A stretch of DNA of 32,000 nucleotides. It comes from Haloferax volcanii DS2. Its GTDB lineage: Archaea > Halobacteriota > Halobacteria > Halobacteriales > Haloferacaceae. Positions 3,530-22,250 of this stretch are shown here, in pieces. Positions within the stretch are counted from its first letter, which is position 1. Every line of letters begins with the position of its first letter. Both the position numbers and the translations under genes were made by a program. The notes under the pieces were generated by a model that ran no database searches, was not told where the DNA came from, and worked only from the letters and a program-made list of their open reading frames with translations. The stretch lies in NCBI RefSeq assembly GCF_000025685.1, contig NC_013966.1, positions 60,001 through 92,000 of the forward strand, given 5' to 3'.

Positions 3530-3532
3530 GTG

Positions 3533-4460: not shown

Positions 4461-4501
4461 TTAACCAACAAATCAGGCTCATCGGTCAATCTGTTGGTTA
4501 A
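4461..4501. repeat. perfect palindrome TTAACCAACA-N21-TGTTGGTTAA (copy 2 of 2)
   Basis: Arms at 4461-4470 and 4492-4501 with a 21-nt spacer aatcaggctcatcggtcaatc. It lies in the divergent intergenic region between the phosphoesterase operon (start 4375, minus) and the SRAP gene (start 4556, plus). Confidence 0.9.
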
Positions 4502-4555
4502 TGGTGAGATTCCTGTGCGACCACGTTGAAGATGCCTCCCTCCGAACTCCTCGGT

Positions 4556-5242: not shown

Positions 5243-5260
5243 TGGCTGACGGGGTCACCG

Positions 5261-6289: not shown

Positions 6290-6339
6290 CTATATCTGGT
6301 AGACTGATTTTCAGGCTAGTAGTAAAAACGTGACCGGGT

Positions 6340-6440
6340 CGCTTCCGGAAAGCAATTTCAATGGAGAGAGGACTCGATTGTCTACTCGCTGTATAGCGGT
6401 TTGTTTGTGGAAACATCCCGTTTCCGGAATTTCCAGAGAT
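6340..6440. other. candidate origin or control region with ORB-like repeats upstream of orc1/cdc6
   Basis: TTCCGGAA occurs at 6343-6350 and 6422-6429. Inverted repeat GGAAAC-ATCCC-GTTTCC at 6409-6425. TGTGGAAAC resembles the archaeal mini-ORB core. Short A-rich run at 6316-6330. Composite motif at 6418-6440. Confidence 0.3.
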
Positions 6441-6481
6441 ACGGACATCAATCTCGTTGCATAAGAGCCTGTATCAGCTTA

Positions 6482-6730
6482 TCAGGATACAGAGCCGTCA
6501 TCTTCGTTGATGGGGGGCCGGAGATCGCGCCATCGAAAATCTGCGGTTTCTCCAGAGGTGAGAGAGACTCGATAGAGGTGCTCGTCCCGTTCATCACCAG
6601 TCACCGCTTCAGCATCGTCAGTCAGTATTGTAACAATGTGACCGTGTACTCCATGATACTGCTCGTGGTCAGGATCTGTCTCGTCTGGAATATCAATCCG
6701 GACACGGTCCCCTTTCGAGAAGCGCTGCAT
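6482..6730 (-). CDS. small acidic hypothetical protein (possible SH3/KOW-like barrel)
   Basis: 82-aa ORF, ATG at 6730. It starts MQRFSKGDRVRIDIPDE... and is highly acidic, like the genuine proteins of this replicon. No catalytic motif. Confidence 0.55.
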   Translation of the reverse strand: MQRFSKGDRVRIDIPDETDPDHEQYHGVHGHIVTILTDDAEAVTGDERDEHLYRVSLTSGETADFRWRDLRPPINEDDGSVS

Positions 6731-6822
6731 TGAGATTCAGTACGGCATCGACCACAATTAGTCCATATGATTCAGCTCAGGGTCTATCGGGGAGCGGATT
6801 GGGCGCTCATCAGCGGCATACC

Positions 6823-6828
6823 TTTATG
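6823..6828 (+). promoter_or_regulatory. TATA-like box for the McrB-like gene
   Basis: TTTATG followed by 26 nt and then ATG 6855. This supports ATG 6855 over the GTG at 6837 used by the ORF track. Confidence 0.35.
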
Positions 6829-6854
6829 ATCCTCGTGTGTTGGATTTCGATAAT

Positions 6855-9800: not shown

Positions 9801-10151
9801 TCTCTCCGACCAATTCTCGCAGACGTGTACCCTGTCGTAGCAGTTCTGTGGCAACGTATCAATGAACATCGCGTCATCGGTCCCTCTATCGTGTACGATA
9901 TCATCCGGTATCTCGGCTCATACGATGACGCCGGCGGATCACGGAAAGACGCGCTCACGTCCGCTGTCGTTTCCCTCGTCTACCCGCAATTGGAGGGTAT
10001 GAGACCAGAACAGCAGAAACAATTGATTCGGTCACTCACCGATCAGAACGTCGCTACCGAAAACGGACCTGTAACACTTGATCTTGACAAGTCGTTACTC
10101 CAGCAAAAAGCGGCTGACTTCTTCGGTATCACGTTCGACGATGACGCATAG
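6855..10151 (+). CDS. mcrB: McrB-family AAA+ GTPase with a long N-terminal extension: helical domain plus three PUA/EVE-like modules
   Basis: Walker A GPPGTGKT (9183-9206). Walker B/McrB box LIIDEINRSDIDKAFGQLF (9411-). McrB signature ATMNTYDKTSLYEMSYAFMRRF (9627-). Three modules of YW/IW...GD-hydrophobic-strand type at ~7581-7826, ~8022-8396 and ~8601-8996. Confidence 0.9.
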   Translation: MVATSSEDIEDLIDRYRDKHDWERDKAHVQNTSKVIRQLVQAIVETGSVDEYAMRTVYNLCQNDDALQPENKKERIDNLDIDSTAKSEIKERIDEGTGIVGKGTYSVPIEGHEEEAFNLLSTAIRSDNRDEIDPAIEEFANLEIEGIQNGIISPILYFLHPTKYPISNHRSRTGMQKFFGYEMSGRLTSYLTEVEKFHEVRADYPFKNDFRHLDSFFNWVEEQESVLGEQSTKPVAEISDDANLYWVNQHNPPEIEEEYLRAKTDGLWHHNLDKLSIGDVVFHNFDNELIGISTVIENAETYTSRDEEYYRVEVDLRSFGEPVPVDDDLKKRLGQDQYRTEKYYSIDKNGNLNEAYLANLSRSAAEFLLSQVDSIEESETPVETSGSPRRIWQITPARGGEYWGTWMQHGIASIGYGLDHKVTNDVADIDDVDELSDGELVEIAAEAGDNHGRGMAYRFQYEIDEGDVIIAKQGRTSESDIIYGIGIVTAAHREKSYPEINHSDVVSVDWKVTFGESGVDIDVGSDSDSIKTYTLDTLDPEYYRDLTSELADKGDVDRDELLALVFDELSQDDEGETTDEGTNHYWISANPSIWKVESIEDGDEVFYTAYNRKGNKRRIFGAFEEASPGDKVLFYESQPVQAIVAEGTIREGLHKDEHEEYDEPVDGITIEYSRAMETISWDQLTAVPDLEDASPIRNRAQGSLFPLTEDEFETILALEDPIEDGVSQDAINQLKTKLTSPEVDVSIPNSLYFDDADRLRREIEASLRSGKHLIFTGPPGTGKTKLAKAICESATTHEQVDDYRFTTATSEWTAFDTIGGYVPSTGDGGQELLFEPRLFLKCFRQDRVVNEWLIIDEINRSDIDKAFGQLFSVLSGDSTELPYERDRTVELRSLSNSTTDEELAEIIGNPDAFPVTPSWRLIATMNTYDKTSLYEMSYAFMRRFNFVHVGVPPLTTDDGVRTSLLDPDGTDNYATAWLADDESLRPILADVYPVVAVLWQRINEHRVIGPSIVYDIIRYLGSYDDAGGSRKDALTSAVVSLVYPQLEGMRPEQQKQLIRSLTDQNVATENGPVTLDLDKSLLQQKAADFFGITFDDDA

Positions 10152-11505
10152 TCTCGCCGTAGAGGAACTCGTTAACGCCACCAGCGAAGAGCTGGGTACG
10201 TACTTGCGAAGCGGCGCGCTGAACACAAACGCACTCACGCGCTCACTCGATTACGAAGGCCTCGATATTGAGGACTGGGAGCGTATCAAACGCATCCATT
10301 TCTGTCTCGCTGACGACGTCCACGACTTCATCAGCGCCCTTTCTGACCGCGTTCGACGCATTAAGACCGAACATCAACGTGAAAACATCCATACGCAAGG
10401 GGAAGTCCGTGGGTCGATCAACTGGAGCGCTACACTCCGGACCCGCTCCGAATCCGGCTACGCAGATCGTAGCCGCTTCGTCTGCAACACCCCCTATACA
10501 GAATACGATATTGCAGAAAACCGCGTCTTGAAACGTCTCCTGTGGCAAATCCACCGCACAGTTACAGACGAACTCCAGAGCGTTGAGTACGATTGGCGGC
10601 AGGAATTCTGGACCGATGACCAGCTCGCCAGCTTCGACCGGCTGTACAAACAGAATGTCCACCTGAGCCGCATCAAAGAGGGCCCGGCAATCTCCGTTTC
10701 CGGACAGGACATGACCACTGCTCGCCAGTCACGCCTCCCGCTCTACACCGAAGCCTACGACCTCTACGATATGTTCCAACGCCTTCAAGCCGACACGCTC
10801 GACGCAGATATCACGGAACTCCTGGCAGACACACTCGTTGTTCCGACAGACACACCAACTCTCTTCGAACTCTTCTGTTGCTTCCGCCTTATCCGAACAC
10901 TCACCCGATTCACTCCTGGTTTCGTCCTCAAACCAATCGACGGAGAAAGTAACGCACTCGCGCACCTCGAATCAGACGACACTCGCATCGAAATCCACCA
11001 TGACAGTACCGGTAGTCTCAGTTTCCACGAACCACTCGATACAACACACCGTCCGGTACACGCACAGTATGCACGATATCACGACGCTCTCATCGACTAC
11101 AGTGACACGCTCGAAGCACTCACAGGTGACCCAAGCGATCCAGTCCTATACAATGGCCGTCCCGACATCATCATCGAAATCTACGACACCACATCCGACG
11201 AAAGACTCGACTCCGTACTCCTCGGTGAAATAAAACACTCCGATGCGACACAGACCTTCAAACAAGGTCTCGAAGAGCTTCTCACTTACCGACGTTTCGC
11301 CAGTAAGGACAATTACCTCATCGACAAACCGGACATCACACTCACCAGCCTTCTGATCACCAACGGCGTTACTACATCTGGAACCAGCGACGAAGTTATC
11401 CACCTCAACGGAACAGACCTCATCGACTCCCCCGCAACGCACTCCAAACATTTGGACTGGATTCACTCACTTTCTGGATTGCCCGCGACTCCAAGCCGGG
11501 CATAG
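10141..11505 (+). CDS. mcrC: McrC-like PD-(D/E)xK nuclease partner
   Basis: ATG 10141 (MTHSLAVEEL...) overlaps the McrB-like stop (10149-10151) by 11 nt. C-terminal nuclease motif RPDIIIEIY...LLGEIKHSD (about 11158-11238). ENRVLKRLLWQI in the N-terminal half. Confidence 0.8.
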   Translation: MTHSLAVEELVNATSEELGTYLRSGALNTNALTRSLDYEGLDIEDWERIKRIHFCLADDVHDFISALSDRVRRIKTEHQRENIHTQGEVRGSINWSATLRTRSESGYADRSRFVCNTPYTEYDIAENRVLKRLLWQIHRTVTDELQSVEYDWRQEFWTDDQLASFDRLYKQNVHLSRIKEGPAISVSGQDMTTARQSRLPLYTEAYDLYDMFQRLQADTLDADITELLADTLVVPTDTPTLFELFCCFRLIRTLTRFTPGFVLKPIDGESNALAHLESDDTRIEIHHDSTGSLSFHEPLDTTHRPVHAQYARYHDALIDYSDTLEALTGDPSDPVLYNGRPDIIIEIYDTTSDERLDSVLLGEIKHSDATQTFKQGLEELLTYRRFASKDNYLIDKPDITLTSLLITNGVTTSGTSDEVIHLNGTDLIDSPATHSKHLDWIHSLSGLPATPSRA

Positions 11506-11551: not shown

Positions 11552-11947
11552 CTAGGATGTGTTGCCGTCCAGGTGTCCCGCAAGGGCGATATCCGCCTCA
11601 GTAACGGTCTCTGGATCGACTAACTCAATCTCTTCTGTGAGCTTATGATGGATCCTACGAATCGTTCCGTTAGTCCCGTATCGACGCCGTCTACGGTGGA
11701 TCGTACGCAACTGGCCCTCTGCCCAGTCGCTCATTTCGTGATCATTCAGCAGCTCGAGAATCTCTTCCGCTTCACCATTCACATCTTCGTCGCTGTCTGC
11801 AATCTGTCGACATAGCTGTTTGATATCGGTAACGACATCGCTGTCTCCGCTTTGCCGACTCAAAATATCGTTCTGCCATGTACTGGGTGTGCCAAGCTCA
11901 CCAACGAAGGACTTCAGCTCCTCAAAGTCATCTTCGGGGCATGCGTT
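11552..11947 (-). pseudogene. 5'-truncated orphan ORF abutting the IS
   Basis: The track ORF 11552..11863 begins at a TTG. By hand the frame stays open upstream to 11947 (NACPEDDFEELKSFVGELGTPSTWQNDIL...) with no ATG or GTG, and it ends in the IS terminal repeat. Confidence 0.4.
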
Positions 11948-13384
11948 CTAGTTTAGTAGCGATCAAAGCCGAACTCACCTCGTTCAACCTGCTCACGTAA
12001 CCGATCTCTGTGTGGATTTGGATTTCGTGACGCCCACAGCAACAGCTCGTCCAAATCCGGCAGTTCGTAGCCCAGCTCAACCATGAGATACAGTTGGATC
12101 AGATGACCGTGGCGTTCCACGGCGAGCGAACAGCGACGCCGAGGGAGCCGCGACGCCGACGAGTCGGCGTCTGCGGCGGCTTCGCCCTCTCGCTGTCTTG
12201 CCTCAAGTGACCGCAACTCATCCACGATTACACGACTCATCATCAACGAAATTGCGGCCATGATGATCAGCGCCTCGATGATGTAGCCGTCGGTCGTCTT
12301 GATCTCGTCCAAGCCGAACCGCGACTTCAACTCCTTGAACAGCAGTTCGACCTCCCAGCGCGCCCGATAGAGCTGCGCGATATCGGGCGCGCTGTAGCTT
12401 TCTCTCGCCAGATTCGTCAGATACAGATGATACTCGTCGGTCTTCTCGTTACGTAGTCCGACCAGTCGAAACGTCCGGGTCGCGCTGGCGCCCGACCCTC
12501 GTTTGCGCTCGAACGAGAGCGTGATGCGGACGTCGATCTCCTGTCGCTGCAGGTCGTCGAGGACGGCCTGCAGCGACTCTCCTTCCAGCGGAATGCTGTT
12601 GCCTCGCCACGTTCGCAGTTCTTCGACAATCTCGAAGTTCGCGTCGTCTTTGACACGAGAGACGAACCAACCGTCGTTCTTGTCGATGCGGTCGAACAGC
12701 CAGAAGTCGTAAAAGCCCAAATCAAGGAGAATGAGGGCGTCAGCTACCCACTCGCCGGTGGGTAGCTGACTCCGTTCATGAGTCGTCCCATCGGTTGTCC
12801 GGAATCGTGTCGGGAGCCCAGTCGAGAGAGATTCGGTGAGGTGAAGTTTCAGTTCGGCTTGATGGTCGCCGGTTGCTGTGTAGATATCAGCGGCGTCCTG
12901 GTACAGCGAAACGATGGTTGCGTCAGCAATGAGGACGTCTCGAAAGCGTTCGAGACGGCCGTTCAAATCTTCTCGTCCGGTATCGAGATTCTCGATTGCG
13001 TCATCGAGAATCTCTCGAAGGAGTGCAACGAATCCTGGTTCGAACCAGTCGTGGAACGATGCGTAGGAGAGTTCGTCACAGTCAGCCATCTCGACGTAGC
13101 GTTCGAGAAATGCTTGGAGAGAGCGGTCTGAGCCAGCAGCGAAGCCAAACGAGAGTGTGTAGAACAGCGCAACGATGTCGAATTTCCGCTCTCGTTGGAC
13201 GAGATTCGTTGCGCGAGCGCGCTCGCGCAACTCATCAGAGGGAAACGCTCTTTGAATCCGGTCAACTATGACCGAATCCGGTGGGCTGTAGGTCATACTT
13301 CCCACCGGGTTTCTCAATCAGGTAGTTGCGACGATATCAAATCAACAGACAGCAACTGGATTCTTTGTTAAACTAGAACGGATG
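11940..13384 (-). mobile_element. IS4-family (ISH8-like) insertion sequence, copy A
   Basis: Perfect 11-bp terminal inverted repeat GTTCTAGTTTA (11945-11955 / complement 13369-13379). It extends outward imperfectly to CATGC / CATCC. Boundaries are uncertain by a few nt, and I found no flanking direct repeat. Confidence 0.8.
11953..13296 (-). CDS. IS4-family DDE transposase (ISH8 group)
   Basis: The track ORF starts at a TTG (13317). ATG 13296 (MTYSPPDSVIVDRIQRAF...) aligns with the N-terminus of the paralogue at 19038. Conserved DVLIADATIVSL, LDLGFYDF, YRARWEVELLFKELK. Confidence 0.9.
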   Translation of the reverse strand: MTYSPPDSVIVDRIQRAFPSDELRERARATNLVQRERKFDIVALFYTLSFGFAAGSDRSLQAFLERYVEMADCDELSYASFHDWFEPGFVALLREILDDAIENLDTGREDLNGRLERFRDVLIADATIVSLYQDAADIYTATGDHQAELKLHLTESLSTGLPTRFRTTDGTTHERSQLPTGEWVADALILLDLGFYDFWLFDRIDKNDGWFVSRVKDDANFEIVEELRTWRGNSIPLEGESLQAVLDDLQRQEIDVRITLSFERKRGSGASATRTFRLVGLRNEKTDEYHLYLTNLARESYSAPDIAQLYRARWEVELLFKELKSRFGLDEIKTTDGYIIEALIIMAAISLMMSRVIVDELRSLEARQREGEAAADADSSASRLPRRRCSLAVERHGHLIQLYLMVELGYELPDLDELLLWASRNPNPHRDRLREQVERGEFGFDRY

Positions 13385-15701
13385 GTCCGACCCCTAGTAC
13401 GTCGGTTGCAAACAGGATGTCAATCTCTTCGCCGGGGGTGACATCGGCTTCTTGGGCTTCTGGAGCGAATCGCTCAACGATCCTCTCATCGTACCCACTG
13501 CCCCCGTGAACAAATCCGACAGTAGGGTTACTCGGATCCTGACCAAGCGTAGCAACGTTGGTGTGCGCTGGATTCTCGCCAGTTAGTTGCTCGAAGAGGT
13601 GCGTGATCGTGGGTACGTACTGGCTGAATATGAGAACCTTCTCGTCCGATAGCTCTCGATCAATTAACCCACGCAGACGTTCCGCCTTAGCGTCTTTAGT
13701 GCGACCGTCTTCTTTAGTCTGGAGTGCGTTCTGTGCTTGCCGTTTTATACGGTCAAGTTCCTGAAGGTCCTCGTCAATATCTGCTACGATCTCGTCTCTT
13801 TTCGAGGGGCTGACTCTATTGAGGGCTTCTGCGACCTCCTCAAAGTCAATATCTTTGGCGAAGTCGTCTTCAAATGTATCCCGTATCTGTTCAACGGCGT
13901 CACTCCGGTTTTTCGCATCATCCAAGTCACCAGTAGCGATGTGACGTGTGATGCGCTCTCGTTCCATAAGACGTTCAACAGAAGTCTCGAACGCGGCAAG
14001 GCTGCTCTCAAGACGTTTGAGGAGATTGATGAGCATCAGAATGCTCGCATTCTGGTACTCAATGATTAGCTCCTCTTCCTCGTCCCCGTCAGCGTCATAC
14101 CGATCTGCGCTAACGTAGGGAATATTCAATCCAGAGTTCTCGGAGTCATCTGACCCGATGACTGTATCGACGATGTCACTATAGAGTTCGTCGAGACGAG
14201 GGTCGTCCGGTGTGATAAGACGCGGATTTCGATCAGGGACGCTAATCGCCCGGTCTCCAATGGTGACCTCCTCGTAATTTTCGAGGATGTACTTCCGGTC
14301 CCTCGAAATAATGACCTCCCGCATAATTGACTCAATGAGTTCTTCGAGGTCCGAAAGCCGACTCTGAGTGCCTGCAGATTTGTCCTCCTCGCTGGAGAGG
14401 CGGTCGTACTGTTTGAAAATCTCGCTCGGTGACAAACCCTTCAGCTCAATGTCGAAGTCGTCGTCGTCAGCAAACACCTTGATCAGATTGTCCACGTCTC
14501 GAACGGAGTTGTGGATCGGCGTCGCAGTGAGCATCACGAACTTCTTGCCCTTTCGACCGATTGACTGGAGTTTGTCGTAGCGCTGTGTTCCAGTATTTCG
14601 GAGGTTGTGGGCTTCGTCGACGAGAATCAAATCAACTCCGCGGAGCCGTTGAATCTCCTTTTCAGACAGACGGGAGAGTTTATTGAAACTCATAAAGGTC
14701 TTCTCAGCGGTTGTCGGAAATTCGCCGGTGTCCGCATCAAGGAGGTCCCGCATCCACATCCGTTCCAGTCGGTTGGGAGCGATGATGAGAACATCATCTC
14801 GGGAGCTTGTGTATTCCTGCACGAGTGGGGCACCGATGTACGACTTCCCCAAACCGACGCTGTCAGCTAATACGACGCCGTTGTATTTTTCGAGCGGGCG
14901 ACGCGCTGCTCTGAATGCGTCCTGCTGGAACGCTGTGAGTTGTTCTTCGTAATCGCCAGTGATGTCCTGGAGTAGGGTGCCCTCTCGGACGTCTCGGGAA
15001 AACTGCTCGACAATAAACCGCTTCGTCGCTTCGTACGGTGAAATCGTTTCCACCTCTGCGACCGATGTACCTCCCTCAGAGGTGTCCGGCAGGTTCTCTC
15101 CGAACTGCGACTCCTCTATCTCGGCAGACATCAGGTCCTTGTCGAATTCGCTGGCCTCCTCCCAGATTTCCTCGAACCACTCGCCGAGATACCGGATCGT
15201 GTTGTTGTCCTTCTTTTCGACGTTCAGTTCGACATTTCCGCGGAGACCGCTAGCGGAGAGGTTTGAAGAGCCGATAATCGCCCGGCCAAGATCCGGGGAA
15301 CCCGCCGGATGCTCGAAGAGATAGAGTTTTGGGTGGAAGCGACTGTCATCATACACTCGAACATCCACCTTTTCCTCCTGAATGAGCTCGTAAAGTCGAT
15401 TAATCCCCTCTTGGGCCTCGGCGCGGTCGTACTCCTCTAGGTCTTCAGCGAATCCGCGTTCAAGTTCGTCAATAGTGCGCTGGTCAGTGTCGGTCCCGAT
15501 GAGGATCTCAACGCGTTCGGTGCTTCGGAGATTCTCCTTCAGGAGGTCGAAACCACCGAGATAGAAGTAGCCAACGGCGATACGAACTGTCTCGGCTTCA
15601 GGCGCGAGAGCGTTCGCTCGCTTGGCGACATCATACTCGCGGTTGTCAAGGACGTCAGAGTAGTCGGACCAGTCCGGATTGCCTCCTTCGTCAGATCCCA
15701 T
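13368..15701 (-). CDS. PLD(HKD)-nuclease-domain / SNF2-family helicase fusion, 3'-truncated by IS copy A
   Basis: ATG 15701 (MGSDEGGNPDW...). HKD motif RFHPKLYLF...GSSNLS (about 15315-15341). Helicase motif I LADSVGLGKS, motif II LILVDEAHNL (14601-14630), motif III MLTATPIHNS. The protein ends in helicase motif V (ILFATDVLGVG), followed by about 5 IS-encoded codons and a stop. Motif VI is missing. Confidence 0.85.
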   Translation of the reverse strand: MGSDEGGNPDWSDYSDVLDNREYDVAKRANALAPEAETVRIAVGYFYLGGFDLLKENLRSTERVEILIGTDTDQRTIDELERGFAEDLEEYDRAEAQEGINRLYELIQEEKVDVRVYDDSRFHPKLYLFEHPAGSPDLGRAIIGSSNLSASGLRGNVELNVEKKDNNTIRYLGEWFEEIWEEASEFDKDLMSAEIEESQFGENLPDTSEGGTSVAEVETISPYEATKRFIVEQFSRDVREGTLLQDITGDYEEQLTAFQQDAFRAARRPLEKYNGVVLADSVGLGKSYIGAPLVQEYTSSRDDVLIIAPNRLERMWMRDLLDADTGEFPTTAEKTFMSFNKLSRLSEKEIQRLRGVDLILVDEAHNLRNTGTQRYDKLQSIGRKGKKFVMLTATPIHNSVRDVDNLIKVFADDDDFDIELKGLSPSEIFKQYDRLSSEEDKSAGTQSRLSDLEELIESIMREVIISRDRKYILENYEEVTIGDRAISVPDRNPRLITPDDPRLDELYSDIVDTVIGSDDSENSGLNIPYVSADRYDADGDEEEELIIEYQNASILMLINLLKRLESSLAAFETSVERLMERERITRHIATGDLDDAKNRSDAVEQIRDTFEDDFAKDIDFEEVAEALNRVSPSKRDEIVADIDEDLQELDRIKRQAQNALQTKEDGRTKDAKAERLRGLIDRELSDEKVLIFSQYVPTITHLFEQLTGENPAHTNVATLGQDPSNPTVGFVHGGSGYDERIVERFAPEAQEADVTPGEEIDILFATDVLGVGPSVLV

Positions 15702-18700
15702 TTTCGAGCCTCTCCAGATCAACTCCGTAGAGCTCTGCGACAGCCTCGTCAAGCTCTCGGTCTATCTCTTCGATGGCGTCCATATCGGGGTCGTCTAAAA
15801 CGTCGGGTCGCTTTTTCTGGATTTGAATCGCATCTTCCACCAACCCGACTATTTTCTCCTTCTCGTCGTCGTCCGGGATTTTGATCGGGAGACGACGCAC
15901 GTCCCGTGTCGATAGCCCGATTCGATTGAGGAAATTCTTAGCGATATATCCGGAGAAAGTGGAGTTGAGGATGGCCATCATATACTTCAGGTCAGCTTTC
16001 TCCTCGTCGATACTGAAGAAGACAAGATTTGTATTCGTAAACACAGATGGCTCAATCATCCGGCACTCCAGATTTCTGACACCACCTCCTTGCTTCGTTG
16101 CGATTCCCTGATTCAGGTAGTACTGGTCGTTCCGAGGAACTCCTTGATCCTTGAGCTTATCGACGTTATCGCGCGACCAGTCCACGAACTCGTCAGTCGG
16201 ACAGAAATAGAGATCACGACTTTTGCTTTCCCTTGTCACCTTCACGAAGGTCCGGTTAGCATCATTAGCAACGCCATGTAACTTCTCTTCCTCAGAGAGC
16301 TGACTGGCATCGTGTATAACCTTCTCTTCTTTGACCGTCTTGTAGAGTTTACTCCGGCTATAGGAATCTTCCTCCTCAATTCGTTTGGCCTTTTTTGTCC
16401 CCTCTAATACGTGGATAAAGTCCTTATTCGTTCTCATTGAGATACCCTGTCCACCGACAGTCAGCAGGCCGAAGGGGAGAATTTCTCCGGGACTTGTCTC
16501 TTGTATCAGGGATTCTACCTCTGGCAGACTTTTTTCAAGGTTTGATGTGTCTGCGATCTCATTTTGCCAGCGGTCGTAGACTGAATTAAACGGCGCGATG
16601 AATTCTCCGAATATCTCGGTGTTAAGCTCTGTTGGGGTAAAGAATGAGTTATTTATCGACTTTCTATAGAGTTCCCTATTCAACTGATAGATGGTGTGTT
16701 CCCCTAGATTTGATCGCTTGGTCTCATACGATACTTCTCCGATTGAGACAGAGTACGATTCATCGTAGTCAATAGGCGTCAACAATTGCGGATATGACTT
16801 AATATCGACATCATAGCTATCGTTGAGTCGTACTTCGTTCGACTTGTTGCCGGACTTACTCAGTGAGAATATTGCTGTCTCCACGGATGCATCAAAGGCA
16901 TCCGGGTTCACCCGAGTCAGTTCGTCCAACTCGTCAAGTAGAGTGGATCGAACGTCAGTTTTGTTTATTTGGGTGAAGAAGGTATCCGACATTATGTATG
17001 TGAATACTCCATCGCTATTGGCGAGCTCGTATCCACGGTGGACGAAAAATTGGAAAAGATCTGTTTTAGAGTAGTACCTGAACCCTTCTTTTTCCGAGTA
17101 GAAATCTCCAAGTTCGCCCTTGTATTCTGCTCCTTCCTGACCCTCGTACGGTGGGTTTCCAATGACGATATCAAAGCCACCGTCCAGAATCACCTCCGGG
17201 ATATTCGTAGTCCACGTAAAGGTAGAGTCCGCTGCTTCTGCCGCTTCAGTCATCCAGCCTCCCTTCTCTTTCACAGCTAACTGAGTTTCCAGTTCCGTTG
17301 TGAGCTTTTCCAACTGATCGCTAAGGCGGTCCTTATTCTTGCCGTGTGCAGTCTGGAACTCCTTCCGCGTCTTGTGAATTTCGTTTAGCGTACTATTGAG
17401 TCCGCCAGTTAGCGTCTCTTGGTAGGAACTAACGTCCACACGTGTCGGGTCGTATTCGCCGACGAGGCTATTCCCGACAAAGAACTTGAATCCAAGGTTT
17501 GGCAGGGCGAACTTCTGGTTGGCCTCAAGGAACTCCTCGTGACTCACATGCTTGAGATCCTGCATCAGGTGGAGCCAAACTCGAAATTTACACATTTCGA
17601 TGCCGGCAGCATCAATGTCGACACCGTAGAGAGTGTCTGCAATAAATTCCTTCTTGAGTTGGAATCGACTTCGGTCGTCGCCACGGCTGGAGTCCAGCGC
17701 CTCTGATACCGCGACAAGCTCCTCCAGCATAGCGATAATGAACGCACCGCTACCTACCGCTGGGTCTAATACGGTCGCGGAACGGAGTGCCTCGTCGATG
17801 GCCTCAATCTGGCTGTCAGAGAGGGACTCAGGTGTAGTGTGATCGGTTACTAGCGATACCGCCTCCTCGTTTGTGATGTCCGTCTGCCCCAGCAAGTGCT
17901 GCTTAAGAGCATTTTTTGTCATATAGGAGGTAATCGGCTTCGGTGTGTAGAATGCACCCAGATCAGCGCGGTCGTCCTTCTGCATAAACATCTCAAAGAT
18001 GCGCCCGATGAACTCTGGGTCAACAACGAGTTCCTGCTCGCTTGGGTTCGACTCGCGCAGGGAGATCTTGTATCGTCGGAGGAGCCCCTCTGGGTTACCG
18101 GAGCTGTTCTTTTCTGGGCTGAGGAGTTTATCGAAGAATACCTCGTCGATTTCGACATTCTTCTCTATGTCCTTGCGCTCAAAGAGTCCGCCGTTGAGGA
18201 AGGGTATTCGACCGAGTGTGTCGGACTCAGTCGTCCCTTCCTCTGAGAGTGCTTCGAAGAACAACGGCTCGAAGAAATCTTCGTAGACGTGCATATCAGG
18301 ATCTTCGGCCACCTCTTCGTACTTGTTCTCGACGTAGTCCACATCCCCGTCAAGCCACTTCTTCTCCTCAATAAACAGCAAGAATAGGACTCGATTGACG
18401 ACCGTTCGCGTGTATGCATTGAGGTTCTCCTCCGGATCCTTTAAGCCGTGAATCGCATCCTGAAGATCCTCGCGGAATATCTCCCCGAAATCCTGGTAGA
18501 AGCTCCGCGTGATCTCCCGAATGGAGAAGACTTCCTCAACATCGCCTTCGAGACTCGCTCGACCCTGTCCAGAGTCCACGGAGAGGTCGTCAAGATAGTC
18601 GAGATACGCAGGTTCGACGCCGAATCGTTTGACCGTGAAGTAGTTGAGATCGAAGGTCACCTCAACGTCTTCTGAAGAGAACTGCTCCTCAATATGAAGG

Positions 18701-18957
18701 AACGTAATATCATCGTTCAGGGGGCTGGTCAGTGGTCCCTCGTCAGATTTTCTATATGCAATGACAGTGAATAGTTCGTTGATGGGGCTCCCGTGTCGTT
18801 TCAAGTGTCGCTTCAGATCGCTAAACGCGGGGCTATCCCCAGATGCTTCGAGTTCGATGTATCGAATGATGCCGTCACCATTCTCATCAACTAAGTGTGC
18901 TTCGTACCAATCGTTCCCTCCTTGGTTGCGCTTTATCCCACTAGGGATCTCGACCAT
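15691..18957 (-). CDS. large gamma-class N6-adenine DNA methyltransferase (Eco57I / PglX / DrmMI-like)
   Basis: 1088 aa. AFYTPKPI, motif I VLDPAVGSGAFI (about 17741-17772), motif IV DIVIGNPPY (NPPY at 17146-17157). N-terminal helical region NRVLFLLFIEEKKWL. Its TGA (15693..15691) overlaps the helicase ATG (15701) by 11 nt. Confidence 0.9.
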   Translation of the reverse strand: MVEIPSGIKRNQGGNDWYEAHLVDENGDGIIRYIELEASGDSPAFSDLKRHLKRHGSPINELFTVIAYRKSDEGPLTSPLNDDITFLHIEEQFSSEDVEVTFDLNYFTVKRFGVEPAYLDYLDDLSVDSGQGRASLEGDVEEVFSIREITRSFYQDFGEIFREDLQDAIHGLKDPEENLNAYTRTVVNRVLFLLFIEEKKWLDGDVDYVENKYEEVAEDPDMHVYEDFFEPLFFEALSEEGTTESDTLGRIPFLNGGLFERKDIEKNVEIDEVFFDKLLSPEKNSSGNPEGLLRRYKISLRESNPSEQELVVDPEFIGRIFEMFMQKDDRADLGAFYTPKPITSYMTKNALKQHLLGQTDITNEEAVSLVTDHTTPESLSDSQIEAIDEALRSATVLDPAVGSGAFIIAMLEELVAVSEALDSSRGDDRSRFQLKKEFIADTLYGVDIDAAGIEMCKFRVWLHLMQDLKHVSHEEFLEANQKFALPNLGFKFFVGNSLVGEYDPTRVDVSSYQETLTGGLNSTLNEIHKTRKEFQTAHGKNKDRLSDQLEKLTTELETQLAVKEKGGWMTEAAEAADSTFTWTTNIPEVILDGGFDIVIGNPPYEGQEGAEYKGELGDFYSEKEGFRYYSKTDLFQFFVHRGYELANSDGVFTYIMSDTFFTQINKTDVRSTLLDELDELTRVNPDAFDASVETAIFSLSKSGNKSNEVRLNDSYDVDIKSYPQLLTPIDYDESYSVSIGEVSYETKRSNLGEHTIYQLNRELYRKSINNSFFTPTELNTEIFGEFIAPFNSVYDRWQNEIADTSNLEKSLPEVESLIQETSPGEILPFGLLTVGGQGISMRTNKDFIHVLEGTKKAKRIEEEDSYSRSKLYKTVKEEKVIHDASQLSEEEKLHGVANDANRTFVKVTRESKSRDLYFCPTDEFVDWSRDNVDKLKDQGVPRNDQYYLNQGIATKQGGGVRNLECRMIEPSVFTNTNLVFFSIDEEKADLKYMMAILNSTFSGYIAKNFLNRIGLSTRDVRRLPIKIPDDDEKEKIVGLVEDAIQIQKKRPDVLDDPDMDAIEEIDRELDEAVAELYGVDLERLENGI

Positions 18958-20348
18958 CCGTGTTCGGTTAAGCGGAGAAACCGACAGACGGCGCTCTAGT
19001 GACGAAGCTATCGTTGTAGACCGCGTGGGGAGAGAATGTGCTAAACCAACTCTCCCCGGATCTCATACGACGACGGTTGACTTCCCTGTTTCCCACCGAG
19101 CTAATCGAAGACATCGCGCGCGAGCGCGATGTCGTCCAGCGTGACCGGAAAATCGACATCACGATGCTCGTCTGGACGCTCATCATGGGCTTCGCCGTCG
19201 ACGGCGAAGCCCGAACTATCGCCGGCTTTCAACGGGCGTACTCCGCAGCAACCAACCAGACCGTTGCCCGCTCAAGCTTCTACGATCGGTTCACGCCGGC
19301 CCTCGCAGCACTGTTGAACGACCTCCTCGAGCACGCTCTCGAGGAGGTCGCGGTTCCTCACACGATCGCGCCACAGTTCGAGCTGTTTCGAGACGTACTG
19401 ATCGCCGATGCAACCGTGTTCAGGTTGCATCGGCTCCTCGATTCGTTTCCAGCCACTCACTCGGGTCAATCCGGCGCGAAACTCCACCTCGTGCAGAACG
19501 CGACCAAGCAGACGATCGAGCAGTTCCAGCTCACCGATGAACGCACCCACGAGAGCAGCCAACTCCGCACCGGGAGTTGGCTACGAGGCCGGCTGTTACT
19601 GTTCGATCTGGGCTTCTACAGTTTCCGCCGCTTCGCGTTGATCGAGGAGAACGGCGGGTTCTTCCTGAGTCGGCTGAAGTCGAACGCGAATCCGTTGATC
19701 GTTGGAGAGCGACGGAAATGGCGCGGGCGCGCCATTTCCTTGCCAGAGCGTCGTCTTCGGGACGTTCTGGAAGATCTCAGTCGGGAGATCATCGACGTAA
19801 CGGTAGAGATCGAGTTCAAACGGCGGGCATACGCTGGGAAGGAATCAACGGATTCGATGGAGTTTCGCGTCGTCGGTGTCCGCAACGAGGACACCGACGA
19901 CTACCACCTGTACGTGACGAATCTGCCCGATGAGTTCACTCCAAGGCAGGTCGGGGCGCTGTACGGGTTGCGGTGGGAAGTGGAGTTGGTGTTCCGGGAA
20001 CTGAAGTCGCTGTATGGGCTGGAGAAATTCCAGACGAGTGATCCAGCGATCGTGGAGCTGTTAGTGGTGGCGGCTCTGCTGACGCTGACGGTCAGCAGAG
20101 CCTTGCTCGGGGTGTTTCAGGAGCTGTTCCCAGAGACAGTGTTTCCGCGAGAACGCTGGGCGAAGACCTTCCGGTCTCTCGCCCAGCTCATGCTCGAAGA
20201 TCTGGCCCAGTCGTTCGGCCATCCACCGCCGAACCTGTCGGAACTGCTGTTTCGTGACGCCCGCCAACCAGAGAAATCGCGGCTCTTACTCAACGAACGA
20301 GTAGCTGAGGCCTTCAGGAGGCGATCCAGTGCTTAACCGAACACCAAT
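18955..20348 (+). mobile_element. IS4-family (ISH8-like) insertion sequence, copy B
   Basis: 14-bp perfect terminal inverted repeat GTGTTCGGTTAAGC (18960-18973 / complement 20330-20343), extended by CATCC / CATTG. All four ends of copies A and B share CATnnGT. No clean target duplication. Confidence 0.8.
19038..20336 (+). CDS. IS4-family DDE transposase (ISH8 group), paralogue of 11953..13296
   Basis: 432 aa with a GTG start. DVLIADATVFRL, FDLGFYSF and YGLRWEVELVFRELK are collinear with copy A. Confidence 0.9.
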   Translation: MLNQLSPDLIRRRLTSLFPTELIEDIARERDVVQRDRKIDITMLVWTLIMGFAVDGEARTIAGFQRAYSAATNQTVARSSFYDRFTPALAALLNDLLEHALEEVAVPHTIAPQFELFRDVLIADATVFRLHRLLDSFPATHSGQSGAKLHLVQNATKQTIEQFQLTDERTHESSQLRTGSWLRGRLLLFDLGFYSFRRFALIEENGGFFLSRLKSNANPLIVGERRKWRGRAISLPERRLRDVLEDLSREIIDVTVEIEFKRRAYAGKESTDSMEFRVVGVRNEDTDDYHLYVTNLPDEFTPRQVGALYGLRWEVELVFRELKSLYGLEKFQTSDPAIVELLVVAALLTLTVSRALLGVFQELFPETVFPRERWAKTFRSLAQLMLEDLAQSFGHPPPNLSELLFRDARQPEKSRLLLNERVAEAFRRRSSA

Positions 20349-20847
20349 GCCAGATCCACACAAACGGCAGCACTAATGGGCCAAGACCGATTCCCGTCAT
20401 TGTGAGACTCGTTGCAAGTCCTTGATAAGAATCAAACCATTGAGGCGTGAGTGAAACTGTAATAGTAAACGCGGTCCCCCCTGTGATGCCAAGAAGTGAA
20501 AATACTACAACAACACCAGGGTATGAGTTGACAATTTGAAGCAGTACGATAGCAGCTATGAGGCCGACACCGACTATCACGAGGACCGGTCGAAGAGAGA
20601 ACCTGGCGGCGAACACGCCAAATAGCCCACCAACCATGAGAAAGACTGCAGTTGTGATCGAAAAAATCGATGACACTTGTAACTGAGTAAGGTTGAAGAT
20701 TGTTGCAAGGCGATCTGCATAGACGGTGAAGGTAAATATAGTCCCCCAGATCATCGTGAGGACGCAAATACCAAGTCCGACAATTAGCCACCCTTGCGTG
20801 GAATCAAGTGCTTCTTGGTGAGCTGTTGGTTCTTTGGTTCCTGTCAT
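20314..20847 (-). pseudogene. MFS transporter (oxalate/formate-antiporter-like) N-terminal half, truncated by IS copy B
   Basis: About 5-6 hydrophobic helices (GWLIVGLGICVLTMIWG..., GLFGVFAARFSLRPV...). The last 11 residues (HWCSVKHWIAS) are encoded by the IS-B end (20317-20348). Only half of a normal 12-TM MFS protein is present. Confidence 0.75.
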
Positions 20848-20852
20848 AATCT

Positions 20853-22250
20853 CAGTACCTCACAAAGCATCCTCGCCTAGCTGTCTCTGAAGCCTGAGTT
20901 CTGTGGCGGAGCGGTTGGACTGGCGGTTTCGACGAGAGAATCATGGACGGATCGGCGGAGAGCCGTCGCTGTCGGCGGCGGCTGCCGCCGACGCGACAGC
21001 GTCGCCACTCCCACCGTTGGCTAGCCCGGACGGGAGTTACCGGTGGAACCGGTCGTCCGGTGGCCGGTTCGCGGGGACGGCCCGACGCGTCGCGAGGGCC
21101 GTCCACGCTGCCCGTCGGATCATGTTGATGAACTCCTTGAATGGCCACTGCCAGAGGCGACGCCCGCCTCGGCGGGGCGTCGCCACGTACTCCCAGTGCA
21201 GATACCGCCACACGTTCTGTAACAGCAAGCTCACCACGACGTACAGCAGCCGTACAACCGGATTTTGTGTCGAGGTCGTCGCAATCGTTTGCTCGGAGAG
21301 TCGGTAGCTCGCCTCGATACCGAAGCGTTTCGCGTAGTGGTATCGAGCGTCTCGTGGTGAGTCGATGAAGGGCGCGTCAGCGGCGTAGCCGTGACGCGCC
21401 ACGCCATGTTCGTCGTACCGTCCGTTCTGGTAGGTACAGTCGATGTAGACGGGAAACTCGACGGTCCAGCTGTGACCGTCGAGTTTCGCTGTCAGACTGT
21501 GCTGAATCACGCGACTCCACCCTTCCGAGAGTTCTCGCTTGATCGCCCGTCCCCAGCGGACGATCGGCATGACGTAGGCGTGGTTGTGCGCCTGAAGCAG
21601 CGTCAAACACTTGCTGTCGTAGAATTCGCGGTCAAGATAGACGGCCTTGACACCGAGGTCAAGGCCGTCGAGAATACCGAGGAACTCTGCGAGGACACTG
21701 CTGGCGGTGTCGCCGTCTTCGAGACGGCGCACCGCCAGCGTGTAGCGTTTGTTCTTCACGCGTGCGTACAGTGTCGCGTACGCGTGAAACGCGGTGGTTC
21801 CACGCTTCGCTTGTGAGTGATACAGGCCGTCTGTATCGTCTTCGTCGCCGTAGTAGGGCCGCAGGTGGAGGTCTGCGCAGACCTCCACCTGCTGGGGAAG
21901 GACGTCGAGAACGTCTTTCTGGAGGAGCGTGTTCCCGATTTGTTCGAGCGTCTCGAGGTCGAACTTGGTGCGGAGATGGTAGAGAACCGAGTTTTCGTGA
22001 GGTGCATCTTCGCTTCTCTTGCAGAGTGTAGAGACCGAGGTCCCGTCGGCGCAGGCGCCGACGAGGACCTCGTAGATGTCTTCAGCATCGAGTTCAGCGT
22101 TTTCAGCGAGTGAGAGAGCAACTTCCTCGTCAAGAGAGTTGACGAGGAAGTTAAGGAGCTGGTCCTCGTGGATTTCATCGTCTGTTTGCTGGTTGTTGGA
22201 CACATCTTCAGCAAGCAGACCTTCTAACTAAACGGCTTTGTGAGGTACTG
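20853..22250 (-). mobile_element. ISH3-family insertion sequence with 5-bp target-site duplication
   Basis: Perfect 16-bp terminal inverted repeat CAGTACCTCACAAAGC (20853-20868 / complement 22235-22250), flanked by direct repeats AATCT (20848-20852 and 22251-22255). Confidence 0.9.
21037..22203 (-). CDS. ISH3-family transposase
   Basis: 388-aa ORF inside the TIR-bounded element. The sequence (VYLDREFYDS..., YAKRFGIEASYR...) is typical of haloarchaeal ISH3-group transposases. Confidence 0.9.
   Translation of the reverse strand: MSNNQQTDDEIHEDQLLNFLVNSLDEEVALSLAENAELDAEDIYEVLVGACADGTSVSTLCKRSEDAPHENSVLYHLRTKFDLETLEQIGNTLLQKDVLDVLPQQVEVCADLHLRPYYGDEDDTDGLYHSQAKRGTTAFHAYATLYARVKNKRYTLAVRRLEDGDTASSVLAEFLGILDGLDLGVKAVYLDREFYDSKCLTLLQAHNHAYVMPIVRWGRAIKRELSEGWSRVIQHSLTAKLDGHSWTVEFPVYIDCTYQNGRYDEHGVARHGYAADAPFIDSPRDARYHYAKRFGIEASYRLSEQTIATTSTQNPVVRLLYVVVSLLLQNVWRYLHWEYVATPRRGGRRLWQWPFKEFINMIRRAAWTALATRRAVPANRPPDDRFHR

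What the first reader, a model, noticed from the sequence alone, without database searches (positions are those of the whole stretch)
13368..18957. Adenine methyltransferase + PLD-SNF2 fusion operon: a minimal DISARM-like or novel R-M-like system, now IS-damaged
A 1088-aa gamma-class N6-adenine MTase (DPAVGSGAF, NPPY) is translationally coupled (11-nt overlap) to a protein that fuses an HKD phospholipase-D nuclease domain to an SNF2 helicase. DISARM class 1 uses separate SNF2 (DrmD), PLD (DrmC) and adenine MTase (DrmMI) genes together with DrmA and DrmB. Here PLD and SNF2 are one polypeptide and no DrmA/DrmB (DUF1998) genes are visible. It could be a compact two-gene methylation-dependent self/non-self system. 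The helicase lacks motif VI because of IS copy A, so this copy is probably inactive.
Basis: partly seen in the sequence, partly recalled or inferred. Interest (0 to 1): 0.7.

Follow-up and report, generated by a model that had tools for sequence, protein, structure and literature searches.

The report
Broken methylase plus PLD-helicase restriction pair
This stretch of the Haloferax volcanii plasmid pHV4 holds the insertion-sequence-damaged remains of a two-gene restriction-modification-like unit (an adenine methylase plus a nuclease-helicase fusion); the pair is intact and widespread elsewhere, it is not DISARM, and the damage probably explains why this methylase (HVO_A0079) was found inactive.

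Summary
A 1088-aa Eco57I/MmeI-like N6-adenine methylase (15691..18957, minus strand) overlaps by 11 nt a PLD(HKD)-Swi2/Snf2 fusion gene that an IS element cuts. Five published deletion primers map exactly, so the window is Haloferax volcanii DS2 pHV4 and the methylase is HVO_A0079. REBASE lists it as "putative Type IIG", and it gave no detectable methylation in SMRT experiments.

Two things are new. The methylase is also damaged: a second IS removed its first 33 codons and supplies its ATG. The helicase lost 218 codons (end of motif V, motif VI) and keeps a 3' tail beyond the IS.

In relatives, the helicase sits next to a large methylase in 64 of 69 informative loci across archaea and bacteria. 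No DrmA/DrmB, DUF499 or DUF3780 gene recurs. So this is not DISARM, not a Type IIG fusion, and not a fragment of MANTIS/BREX-related systems.

It is best read as a two-subunit, ATP-dependent R-M module, like a split Type ISP or Type III enzyme with a SauUSI/MtsD-like PLD motor nuclease. I found no name or experimental test for the family. This copy is dead. Interest is moderate.

The parts
15691..18957 (-). N6-adenine MTase remnant (HVO_A0079), 1088 aa. Eco57I/MmeI/PglX-like core plus a C-terminal specificity region. It lacks the first 33 codons of intact orthologues.
   Evidence: Alignment to the 1121-aa Halorussus orthologue starts at its residue 34. Published HVO_A0079 deletion primers map at 18958-18976 and 15682-15702 (PMC5867850). 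Motifs are located.
18955..18957 (-). Start codon of the MTase ORF, supplied by the terminal bases (CAT on the + strand) of IS B. The ORF is a hybrid.
   Evidence: The inverted repeat 18955-18973 / 20331-20349 includes the ATG. The orthologue has Phe34 at this position.
15691..15701 (-). 11-nt overlap (ATGGGATCTGA) between the MTase stop and the helicase start.
   Evidence: The Halorussus orthologue has the same 11-nt overlap. Halorientalis and Nanohalobium have 8-nt overlaps.
13386..15701 (-). 5' part of the PLD(HKD)-Swi2/Snf2 gene, 772 native codons. It holds the PLD domain (about nt 15162-15593), SNF2 lobe 1 (motifs I-III, nt 14505-14855) and part of lobe 2 up to motif V ('ATDVLGVG').
   Evidence: It is 95% identical to the intact 1123-aa P0001 over these residues.
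13368..13385 (-). Five IS-encoded codons (PSVLV) and the stop that end the truncated helicase ORF.
   Evidence: Homology to the intact Halorussus gene stops at 13385.
11941..13384 (-). IS A, an IS4-family element. The transposase ORF is 11953..13317. The terminal repeats are CATCCGTTCTAGTTTA and CATGCGTTCTAGTTTA. There is no target-site duplication. It replaces 654 bp of the helicase gene.
   Evidence: DDE_Tnp_1 1.3e-22; inverted repeat I4.
11552..11946 (-). Orphaned 3' tail of the helicase gene, the last ~130 codons ('...PEDDFEELKSF...' to the stop).
   Evidence: 81.8% nt identity to Halorussus L001 10952-11346. The translation matches the C-terminus of P0001.
18955..20349 (+). IS B, a different IS4-family element. 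The transposase ORF is 19038..20336, probably the 'HVO_A0080' of the literature. It lies in inverted orientation to IS A and has no target-site duplication.
   Evidence: DDE_Tnp_1 6.8e-26; inverted repeat I9. PMC5867850 says HVO_A0079 is flanked by the IS4 transposase HVO_A0080.
20350..20847 (-). Truncated MFS-transporter ORF that abuts the far end of IS B. It shows that the missing 5' end of the MTase gene is not simply displaced across the IS.
   Evidence: MFS_1 3.5e-11.

Best explanation
The region is the degraded remnant, in Haloferax volcanii DS2 plasmid pHV4, of a two-gene ATP-dependent restriction-modification module.

Gene 1 (HVO_A0079) encodes a large Eco57I/MmeI/PglX-like N6-adenine methyltransferase. 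Its swappable C-terminal half carries the target-recognition function. Its ~170-aa N-terminal domain has an alpha-beta-beta-beta-alpha-beta order of elements, like a restriction-endonuclease fold, but no conserved catalytic residues.

Gene 2 (by position HVO_A0078) is translationally coupled to gene 1. It encodes a single-HKD phospholipase-D nuclease fused to a RapA-like Swi2/Snf2 motor.

In intact copies the methylase is inferred to mark a short asymmetric host site on adenine. At unmodified sites it is inferred to recruit or license the PLD-Snf2 protein. That protein would dimerise through its single-HKD domains to form one nuclease site, as in SauUSI, MtsD and BfiI, and would use ATP-driven translocation to cut foreign DNA. 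Functionally this is a Type III or split Type ISP logic, or a MANTIS system without its AAA+ loader.

In this window the module is dead. IS B removed the promoter and first 33 codons of the methylase. IS A plus a 654-bp deletion removed the end of motif V, motif VI and the following ~200 residues of the motor.

Shown: the anatomy, the damage, the identity of the genes, the conservation of the pair, and the absence of DISARM/BREX-related partners. Inferred: the division of labour, hemimethylation, dimerisation and the cleavage mechanism.
For: Identity of the locus:
- Five primers of PMC5867850 map exactly.
- The gene sizes of 3267 and 3315 bp match HVO_A0079 and HVO_A0074.

Domains:
-.
- HKD and helicase residues are invariant across 60 homologues: H121, K123, G142, S143, N145, the GxGK motif, D362/E363/H365, and Q795/R796/G798/R799.
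- An AF2 model of the intact helicase (pLDDT 80) matches RapA (3.6e-15), Rad54 and CSB, and the PLD-helicase restriction enzyme SauUSI 7CLG (3.9e-13, aligned over 1131 columns).

Damage.

Pair conservation:
- Four intact haloarchaeal or nanohaloarchaeal loci are two-gene units.
- Of 84 loci, 64 have a large MTase within 6 kb, 61 on the same strand and 37 adjacent or overlapping.
- Only 5 of the 20 loci without an MTase have at least 4 kb of flank on both sides.
- No other gene cluster recurs in more than 6 loci.
- In five loci the partner MTase carries the Type ISP C-terminal specificity domain (Type_ISP_C 1.3e-75).

Specificity-domain shuffling: P0132 is 95% identical to P0121 in residues 1-180 but 25-36% identical in residues 761-1131.

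Activity of an orthologue: the Natrinema versiforme methylome paper assigns m6A motif GCAAT (71% modified) to FEJ81_20490. By a consistent +15 locus-tag offset, this is the orthologous MTase FEJ81_RS20505, which sits next to helicase RS20500.

Inactivity here: deleting rmeRMS and HVO_0794 removes all detectable methylation, and HVO_A0079 contributes none (PMC5867850).

Mechanistic analogy: MtsD of MANTIS is a dimeric PLD-SF2 effector that acts on unmethylated DNA recognised by its MTase (bioRxiv 10.64898/2026.09.23.753747).
Against: - No member of this exact two-gene family has been tested for restriction, and none is in the papers I could search.
- In MANTIS the MTase cannot bind DNA without the AAA+ loader MtsA, and nuclease activity of MtsD has not been reconstituted. 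The analogy is therefore incomplete.
- The GCAAT assignment is the source paper's putative one, and my gene mapping rests on an inferred locus-tag offset.
- Five informative loci lack a recognisable MTase. In several others, 1-6 kb of unrelated genes (OLD-like ATPases, Schlafen/AlbA_2, HTH-ImmA) lie between the two genes.
- The fold of the N-terminal domain is unassigned: the best Foldseek hit has E = 0.075.
- PMC5867850 reports transcripts of HVO_A0079, so loss of the promoter is not absolute.
Confidence: 0.72

Rival explanations
1. Minimal or degenerate class 1 DISARM: DrmMI plus a DrmD-DrmC fusion that works, or once worked, with DrmA/DrmB.
For: The domain inventory (SNF2, PLD, adenine MTase) equals the class 1-specific DISARM genes. 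PADLOC DrmD, DrmC and DrmMI models give significant but partial hits.
Against: No DrmA or DUF1998 gene is in the window, in four intact orthologous loci or as a recurrent neighbour in 84 loci. The helicase scores 272 bits on its own family model against 125 bits on DrmD. The MTase fits Type IIG and PglX models better than DrmMI.
Confidence: 0.04
2. A Type IIG restriction-modification enzyme, as REBASE annotates HVO_A0079, with nuclease and methylase in one polypeptide, sitting next to an unrelated helicase.
For: The best PADLOC hits are REase_MTase_IIG models (141 bits). Pfam finds Eco57I and MmeI_Mtase. The protein is MmeI-sized. REBASE labels homologues Type IIG (PMC5867850). The N-terminal domain has an order of elements like that of PD-(D/E)XK nucleases.
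Against: The IIG profile matches start only at about residue 140-185. There is no Pfam nuclease domain. No invariant residue occurs before position 187 in 21 homologues, and the candidate D...ExE positions vary (E/G/S/P). Foldseek gives no significant match. The authors of PMC5867850 also saw no similarity in the nuclease region. The helicase partner is conserved, co-oriented and often overlapping. The REBASE 'Type IIG' RM.HarDL31ORF105P (Halar_0105) also sits next to a PLD-SNF2 gene.
Confidence: 0.07
3. A fragment of a DUF499-centred BREX-related system (MANTIS / Gao_RL / Hma) that has lost its AAA+ ATPase and DUF3780 genes.
For: Type-2 BR systems use an N-terminal HKD plus Swi2/Snf2 effector and an N6-MTase (PMC12839542). 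The PADLOC PLD_Helicase and HmaA models hit the helicase (91 and 82 bits).
Against: No DUF499 or DUF3780 gene occurs in any of 84 loci. A genuine BR-type locus on Natrinema pNVE500 scores 192 bits (PLD_Helicase) and 289 bits (HmaC), and its MTase is the unrelated DUF1156/HmaB type. The MTase here is Eco57I/MmeI-type.
Confidence: 0.05
4. Not a defence system: a RapA-like remodeller plus a methylase that acts in epigenetic regulation or DNA repair. Alternatively, an accessory of type III CRISPR-Cas, since the family model C3a139 was defined that way.
For: The closest solved motor is RapA. The family HMM comes from a screen for type III CRISPR accessory genes (PMC6546367).
Against: The PLD catalytic residues are invariant. 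The TRD is swapped between near-identical MTases. The pair is patchy in distribution and sits on plasmids, next to integrases, IS elements, provirus genes and other defence genes. No cas gene cluster recurs among the 84 loci.
Confidence: 0.05

Closest known systems
MANTIS (Gao_RL / GAO_29; Type-2 DUF499-centred BREX-related system)
   Same: The effector is an N-terminal single-HKD PLD nuclease fused to an SF2/Swi2-Snf2 motor. An N6-adenine MTase supplies site recognition for both modification and restriction. The sites are asymmetric and hemimethylated.
   Different: MANTIS needs the AAA+ loader MtsA (DUF499) and MtsB (DUF3780). Neither is present in 84 loci. Its MTase is the DUF1156/HmaB type, not the Eco57I/MmeI type. 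The helicase here belongs to a different HMM family (272 bits on C3a139 against 91 bits on PLD_Helicase).
Type ISP restriction-modification enzymes (LlaGI, LlaBIII)
   Same: The same four functions are present: nuclease, SF2 translocase, gamma-type adenine MTase and TRD. In five related loci the partner MTase carries the Type_ISP_C specificity domain.
   Different: Type ISP enzymes are single polypeptides with an Mrr-type PD-(D/E)XK nuclease (established knowledge). Here the functions are split over two genes and the nuclease is PLD/HKD.
Type III restriction-modification (Mod + Res)
   Same: The logic is two-subunit. The MTase subunit carries specificity, and the second subunit is an SF2 ATPase fused to a nuclease.
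   Different: Mod is a beta-class MTase, and Res has a C-terminal PD-(D/E)XK nuclease on a Rad25-like helicase (PMC2292703; established knowledge). Here the MTase is Eco57I-like and the partner is an N-terminal PLD on a Swi2/Snf2 motor.
SauUSI (Type IV ATP-dependent PLD-helicase restriction enzyme, PDB 7CLG)
   Same: The N-terminal PLD plus SF2 motor architecture is the same. The Foldseek E-value is 3.9e-13 over the whole chain. The PLD regions also match at sequence level.
   Different: SauUSI has its own TRD, cuts modified (5mC) DNA and has no methylase partner.
DISARM class 1 (DrmA, DrmB, DrmC, DrmD, DrmMI)
   Same: It contains an SNF2 helicase, a PLD nuclease and a large adenine MTase.
   Different: The defining DrmA/DrmB core is absent. 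PLD and SNF2 are fused. The HMM scores are well below those for the protein's own family.
Type IIG/IIL enzymes (Eco57I, MmeI) and BREX PglX/BrxX
   Same: The MTase core and helical spacer are homologous (Pfam Eco57I, MmeI_Mtase, MmeI_hel in some homologues, TaqI_C). BrxX is the closest solved sequence.
   Different: There is no active nuclease domain in the MTase. There are no PglZ or BrxC partners.

Membership tests
DISARM class 1 | DrmA (DEAD/Helicase_C helicase) and DrmB (DUF1998) core genes in the operon | tested here: not met
   None is in the window, in intact orthologous loci or among recurrent neighbours in 84 loci.
DISARM class 1 | DrmD SNF2 helicase and DrmMI adenine MTase as best-matching families | tested here: not met
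   The intact helicase scores 272 bits on C3a139 against 125 bits on the best DrmD model. The MTase scores 136-141 bits on Type IIG models against 73-80 bits on DrmMI.
DISARM class 1 | PLD nuclease (DrmC) | tested here: inconclusive
   A PLD domain is present but fused to the helicase. DrmC models hit only at E = 1.7e-4 to 2e-3.
Type IIG restriction-modification enzyme | Eco57I/MmeI-type adenine MTase plus TRD in one large polypeptide | tested here: met
   Pfam Eco57I, N6_Mtase and MmeI_Mtase. The DPAVGSGAF and NPPY motifs are present. The C-terminal half is swapped between near-identical homologues.
Type IIG restriction-modification enzyme | Active endonuclease domain in the same polypeptide | tested here: not met
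MANTIS / Gao_RL / Type-2 BREX-related | DUF499 AAA+ ATPase (MtsA) and DUF3780 protein (MtsB) in the locus | tested here: not met
   Both are absent from the window and from 84 related loci. A true BR-type locus used as a positive control (Natrinema L087) is detected readily.
MANTIS / Gao_RL / Type-2 BREX-related | N-terminal HKD nuclease fused to a Swi2/Snf2-type helicase as effector | tested here: met
   PLDc_2 plus SNF2-rel_dom plus Helicase_C in intact homologues. The structural matches are RapA and SauUSI. It belongs, however, to a different HMM family.
MANTIS / Gao_RL / Type-2 BREX-related | DUF1156/HmaB-type MTase (MtsC) | tested here: not met
   The HmaB and DUF1156_MTase models hit the Natrinema BR-type MTase (195 and 80 bits). 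They are not among the 25 best PADLOC hits shown (of 41) for P0121.
Type ISP restriction-modification enzyme | Single polypeptide: Mrr nuclease, SF2 ATPase, MTase and TRD | tested here: not met
   There are two genes and a PLD nuclease instead of Mrr. Only the Type_ISP_C TRD appears, and only in 5 related loci.
PADLOC C3a139 'HKD+Snf2' (candidate type III CRISPR accessory, Shah et al. 2018) | Match to the family HMM over most of its length | tested here: met
   E = 4.3e-81, residues 35-902 on profile positions 23-817 of 948 for intact P0001. The truncated window protein gives E = 1.1e-59.
PADLOC C3a139 'HKD+Snf2' (candidate type III CRISPR accessory, Shah et al. 2018) | Genomic association with type III cas cassettes | tested here: not met
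   No gene cluster other than the MTase recurs in more than 6 of 84 loci. cas genes were not searched for by name.
IS4-family insertion sequences | DDE_Tnp_1 transposase flanked by terminal inverted repeats | tested here: met
   DDE_Tnp_1 at 1.3e-22 and 6.8e-26. The inverted repeats are 11934-11955/13369-13390 and 18955-18973/20331-20349. No target-site duplications were found.

The most novel reading that the evidence does not exclude
The intact relatives of this pair form an unnamed, experimentally untested class of ATP-dependent restriction-modification. In it, a PglX/MmeI-like methylase with a degenerate nuclease-like N-domain directly licenses a SauUSI/MtsD-like PLD-Swi2/Snf2 motor nuclease, with no AAA+ loader. 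This would be a 'loader-less MANTIS' or a 'split Type ISP with a PLD nuclease'. Many REBASE 'Type IIG' entries in archaea would then be the modification/specificity subunits of such two-gene systems.
Probability: 0.45. Interest if true: 0.55.

Novelty: new variant of a known kind. Interest (0 to 1): 0.4.

Why it matters
1. It offers a concrete explanation for a published puzzle in the main archaeal genetic model. HVO_A0079 looks like a good methylase yet contributes nothing to the H. volcanii methylome (PMC5867850). It is an N-terminally truncated, IS-fused remnant, and its nuclease-helicase partner is also broken.

2. It corrects the classification. HVO_A0079 and at least one REBASE 'Type IIG' homologue (Halar_0105) are not self-contained Type IIG enzymes. 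They are one half of a conserved methylase plus PLD-Snf2 pair.

3. The pair is widespread. 198 plasmids carry a relative.

4. It is the simplest relative of the newly characterised MANTIS system. It would therefore be a useful minimal system for asking how a methylase hands unmodified sites to a PLD motor nuclease, and what the AAA+ loader adds.

The copy in this window has no present function.

Tried and rejected
- DISARM was rejected on gene content and HMM scores.
- 'Fragment of MANTIS/Hma' was rejected by comparison with a genuine BR-type locus found by chance on Natrinema pNVE500.
- Look-ups of two bacterial homologues (P0083, P0105) returned nothing.
- The megablast search of PLSDB did not return pHV4 itself, only the Halorussus plasmid. 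The source was identified from primers in the literature instead.
- In one search I saw long reverse-strand BLAST hits that looked like an inverted duplicate. They were hits to other loci stored in the same FASTA file. This was resolved.
- The Halorubrum BOL3-1 methylome paper leaves three asymmetric m6A motifs unassigned, so it could not be used as evidence.
- Literature searches for HVO_A0078, and for PLD/HKD + SNF2 + methyltransferase combinations, found no description of this two-gene family.
Full report
**What is in the sequence.**
On the minus strand, ORF 15691..18957 encodes a 1088-aa protein.
- Pfam finds Eco57I (5e-28), N6_Mtase and MmeI_Mtase domains.
- The motifs are DPAVGSGAF (nt 17740-17766) and NPPY (nt 17146-17157).
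- Its stop codon (15693-15691) lies inside the next gene, which starts at the ATG at 15701. The overlap is the 11-nt string ATGGGATCTGA.

The second protein has an N-terminal PLD domain (PLDc_2 3.4e-14, with HPK and GSSN) and SNF2 motifs I-III. It ends abruptly after 'ATDVLGVG' in motif V, followed by five foreign codons and a stop.

**Where the window comes from.**
A paper on Haloferax volcanii methyltransferases (PMC5867850) describes HVO_A0079 as a 3267-bp, 1088-aa 'putative Type IIG' gene on pHV4, flanked by an IS4 transposase. It describes HVO_A0074 as a 3315-bp 'Type IV' gene.
- Five of its deletion primers match the window exactly at the expected places: 18958-18976, 15682-15702, 14691-14712, 19941-19957 and 11242-11261.
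- So the window is H. volcanii DS2 pHV4. The methylase is HVO_A0079, and ORF 6837..10151 is HVO_A0074.
- That study found that deleting HVO_0794 and rmeRMS removes all detectable methylation. HVO_A0079 contributes none, 'for unclear reasons'.
- The paper never mentions the neighbouring helicase gene. HVO_A0078 appears in no paper I could search.

**The damage is double.**
The closest annotated relative is a Halorussus lipolyticus plasmid (89.7% nt identity). There the pair is intact: a 1121-aa methylase and a 1125-aa 'helicase-related protein' with the same 11-nt overlap.

Helicase:
- Window 13385-18945 aligns to L001 12001-17567, and window 11552-11946 aligns to L001 10952-11346.
- So 654 bp (218 codons) of the helicase gene are missing and replaced by an IS4-family element (about 11941-13384; transposase 11953..13317; terminal repeats found).
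- Against the 95%-identical intact protein P0001, the lost part runs from 'QNLQDARV...' through motif VI 'QRIGRIDR' to about residue 1000. The C-terminal ~130 codons survive as an orphan tail.

Methylase:
- It aligns to the Halorussus protein only from that protein's residue 34.
- Its ATG (18957-18955) is the outermost 'CAT' of the terminal repeat of a second IS (18955-20349).
- The far side of that IS abuts a truncated MFS transporter gene.

Neither IS has a target-site duplication, and the two transposases are only 39% identical. These are two different elements associated with rearrangements, not two copies of one IS. Loss of the first 33 residues removes the first two helices of the N-terminal domain in the AF2 model. 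This damage plausibly explains the published inactivity.

**What the intact unit is.**
Homologues of the helicase are about 1120 aa long and carry PLDc_2, SNF2-rel_dom and Helicase_C.

Close relatives:
- In Halorientalis, Natrinema and Nanohalobium the same Eco57I-type methylase lies immediately upstream, and nothing else is shared.
- In Thermococcus the order is reversed.

Broad survey:
- I fetched 80 more loci from GTDB species genomes.
- I clustered all ORFs of these loci.
- Of 84 loci with the helicase, 64 have a large N6-methylase within 6 kb. Of these, 61 are on the same strand and 37 are adjacent or overlapping.
- Of the 20 loci without an MTase, only 5 have at least 4 kb of flank on both sides.
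- No other cluster occurs in more than 6 loci.
- Genes occasionally inserted between the two are OLD-like ATPases, Schlafen/AlbA_2 proteins and HTH-ImmA regulators.
- In five loci the methylase is a different one that carries the Type ISP C-terminal specificity domain (1.3e-75).

Other evidence on the pair:
- The C-terminal half of the methylase is swapped between otherwise near-identical proteins. P0132 is 95% identical to P0121 in residues 1-180 but 25-36% identical in residues 761-1131. This is the usual signature of specificity shuffling in R-M methylases.
- HKD and helicase catalytic residues are invariant in 60 homologues.

**Tests against known systems.**

DISARM:
- No DrmA or DUF1998 gene is in the window or in any related locus.
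- The intact helicase scores 272 bits on the PADLOC model C3a139 'HKD+Snf2'. It scores 125 bits on DrmD, 91 on PLD_Helicase, 89 on BrxH and 82 on HmaA.
- The methylase scores 136-141 bits on Type IIG models, 83-84 on PglX and 73-80 on DrmMI.

Type IIG:
- The profile matches begin at residue 140-185.
- No residue is invariant before position 187, and the candidate acidic positions vary.
- A confident model of the N-domain (pLDDT 82) has the order of elements alpha-beta-beta-beta-alpha-beta, as in restriction-endonuclease-like folds. It has no significant PDB match.
- I read it as a possibly degenerate nuclease-like domain, but this is not demonstrated.

MANTIS / Gao_RL / Type-2 BREX-related systems:
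- These use an HKD-Snf2 effector with an N6-methylase, but they are built around a DUF499 AAA+ ATPase and a DUF3780 protein (PMC12839542; bioRxiv 10.64898/2026.09.23.753747).
- Both are absent here.
- A genuine system of that kind, found by chance on Natrinema pNVE500, is recognised easily: HmaC 289 bits, HmaB 195 bits, PLD_Helicase 192 bits.

Structure of the helicase:
- The intact helicase model (pLDDT 80) matches RapA (3.6e-15), Swi2/Snf2 remodellers, and the PLD-helicase restriction enzyme SauUSI (3.9e-13).

**How it most likely works (inferred).**
The methylase/TRD subunit recognises a short asymmetric site and methylates one adenine. At unmodified sites it recruits or activates the PLD-Snf2 subunit. 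That subunit has one HKD motif per chain, so it must dimerise to form an active site, as in SauUSI and MtsD. It uses ATP-driven translocation to reach a cleavage-competent state.

This is the logic of Type III and Type ISP enzymes, spread over two genes and with a PLD nuclease.

Indirect support for methylase activity comes from the Natrinema versiforme methylome.
- Motif GCAAT (m6A, 71% modified) is putatively assigned to FEJ81_20490.
- The other plasmid-borne assignment (TCCTCGG, FEJ81_19855) falls 15 tag units before the only methylase in its region (RS19870).
- The same +15 shift puts FEJ81_20490 on RS20505, the orthologue of HVO_A0079, which sits next to helicase RS20500.
- This mapping is an inference.

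**Novelty and verdict.**
- The genes in the window are known and dead. Its 'compact two-gene R-M-like system' reading is supported.
- The family is catalogued piecemeal: the methylases as REBASE 'Type IIG' entries, and the helicase as a candidate CRISPR accessory, C3a139 (PMC6546367).
- At least one more REBASE 'Type IIG' entry, Halar_0105 of archaeon DL31, also sits beside a PLD-Snf2 gene.
- I found no paper that names or tests the pair.
- I rate it a new variant of a known kind, an ATP-dependent R-M with a PLD motor nuclease, of moderate interest.
- Its immediate value is to explain the inactivity of HVO_A0079 and to point to a minimal relative of MANTIS that could be tested in the existing H. 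volcanii delta-RM strain.

Noticed in passing
window 6837-11505 (+): HVO_A0074 is a 1104-aa protein with an EVE domain (aa 591-723) and a McrB-like AAA_5 domain (aa 778-950). Its N-terminal ~590 aa are mostly unassigned, apart from a weak PADLOC PDC-S02 hit at aa 396-520. A 475-aa ORF overlaps its end (10078..11505) and has no Pfam or PADLOC hit; it sits where McrC would be. Together they look like a modified-base-sensing McrBC-type (Type IV) system directly next to the broken R-M pair.
   Followed up: partly
window 11941-13384 and 18955-20349: Two different IS4-family elements (transposases 39% identical, similar CATCCGT... ends) lie in inverted orientation around the 5.6-kb gene remnant. Neither has a target-site duplication. 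The arrangement resembles a composite transposon, or the scars of IS-mediated deletions.
   Followed up: partly
window 20314-22203 (-): A truncated MFS transporter ORF runs into the end of IS B. Next to it is a 388-aa ORF (21037..22203) with no Pfam hit whose sequence looks transposase-like. The region is an IS-rich patchwork.
   Followed up: no
L087 36248-46707 (Natrinema versiforme pNVE500): A complete DUF499 / hypothetical / DUF1156-MTase / PLD-helicase locus of the Hma/MANTIS-like BREX-related type sits on the same plasmid as the orthologous two-gene pair. The locus-tag offset suggests its MTase makes the TCCTCGG (96%) methylation. It is flanked by SRAP and Cdc6 genes, as is window 4526-6289.
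   Followed up: partly
L002 1855-5116 (Halorientalis brevis): The intact pair lies about 1.5 kb downstream of a block of pleolipovirus-like genes (VP3, HRPV envelope protein, DUF8063/8125). In Nanohalobium and Natrinema the pair sits beside integrase genes. The module may travel on proviruses or integrative elements.
   Followed up: no
L088 6962-14227 (archaeon DL31), L056, L062: A second haloarchaeal subfamily exists, about 30% identical to the first. Its PLD-Snf2 gene (about 1270 aa) and its about 1200-aa MTase are convergent rather than co-directional. It is present on many haloarchaeal plasmids.
   Followed up: partly
L032, L066, L080: Three loci lack the usual methylase. Instead they have a 1506-aa extended helicase, or very large upstream ORFs of 2395 aa (sigma-70-like N-terminus) and 1741 aa. 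These may be different partner architectures.
   Followed up: no
L089 (Halorubrum sp. BOL3-1 p163) 3375-10789: An MTase plus PLD-helicase pair lies near a DUF262 gene and a second large MTase. The strain's published methylome has three unassigned asymmetric m6A motifs (GTCAGT, CAGAGC, GCGGAGG) that could belong to these enzymes.
   Followed up: no
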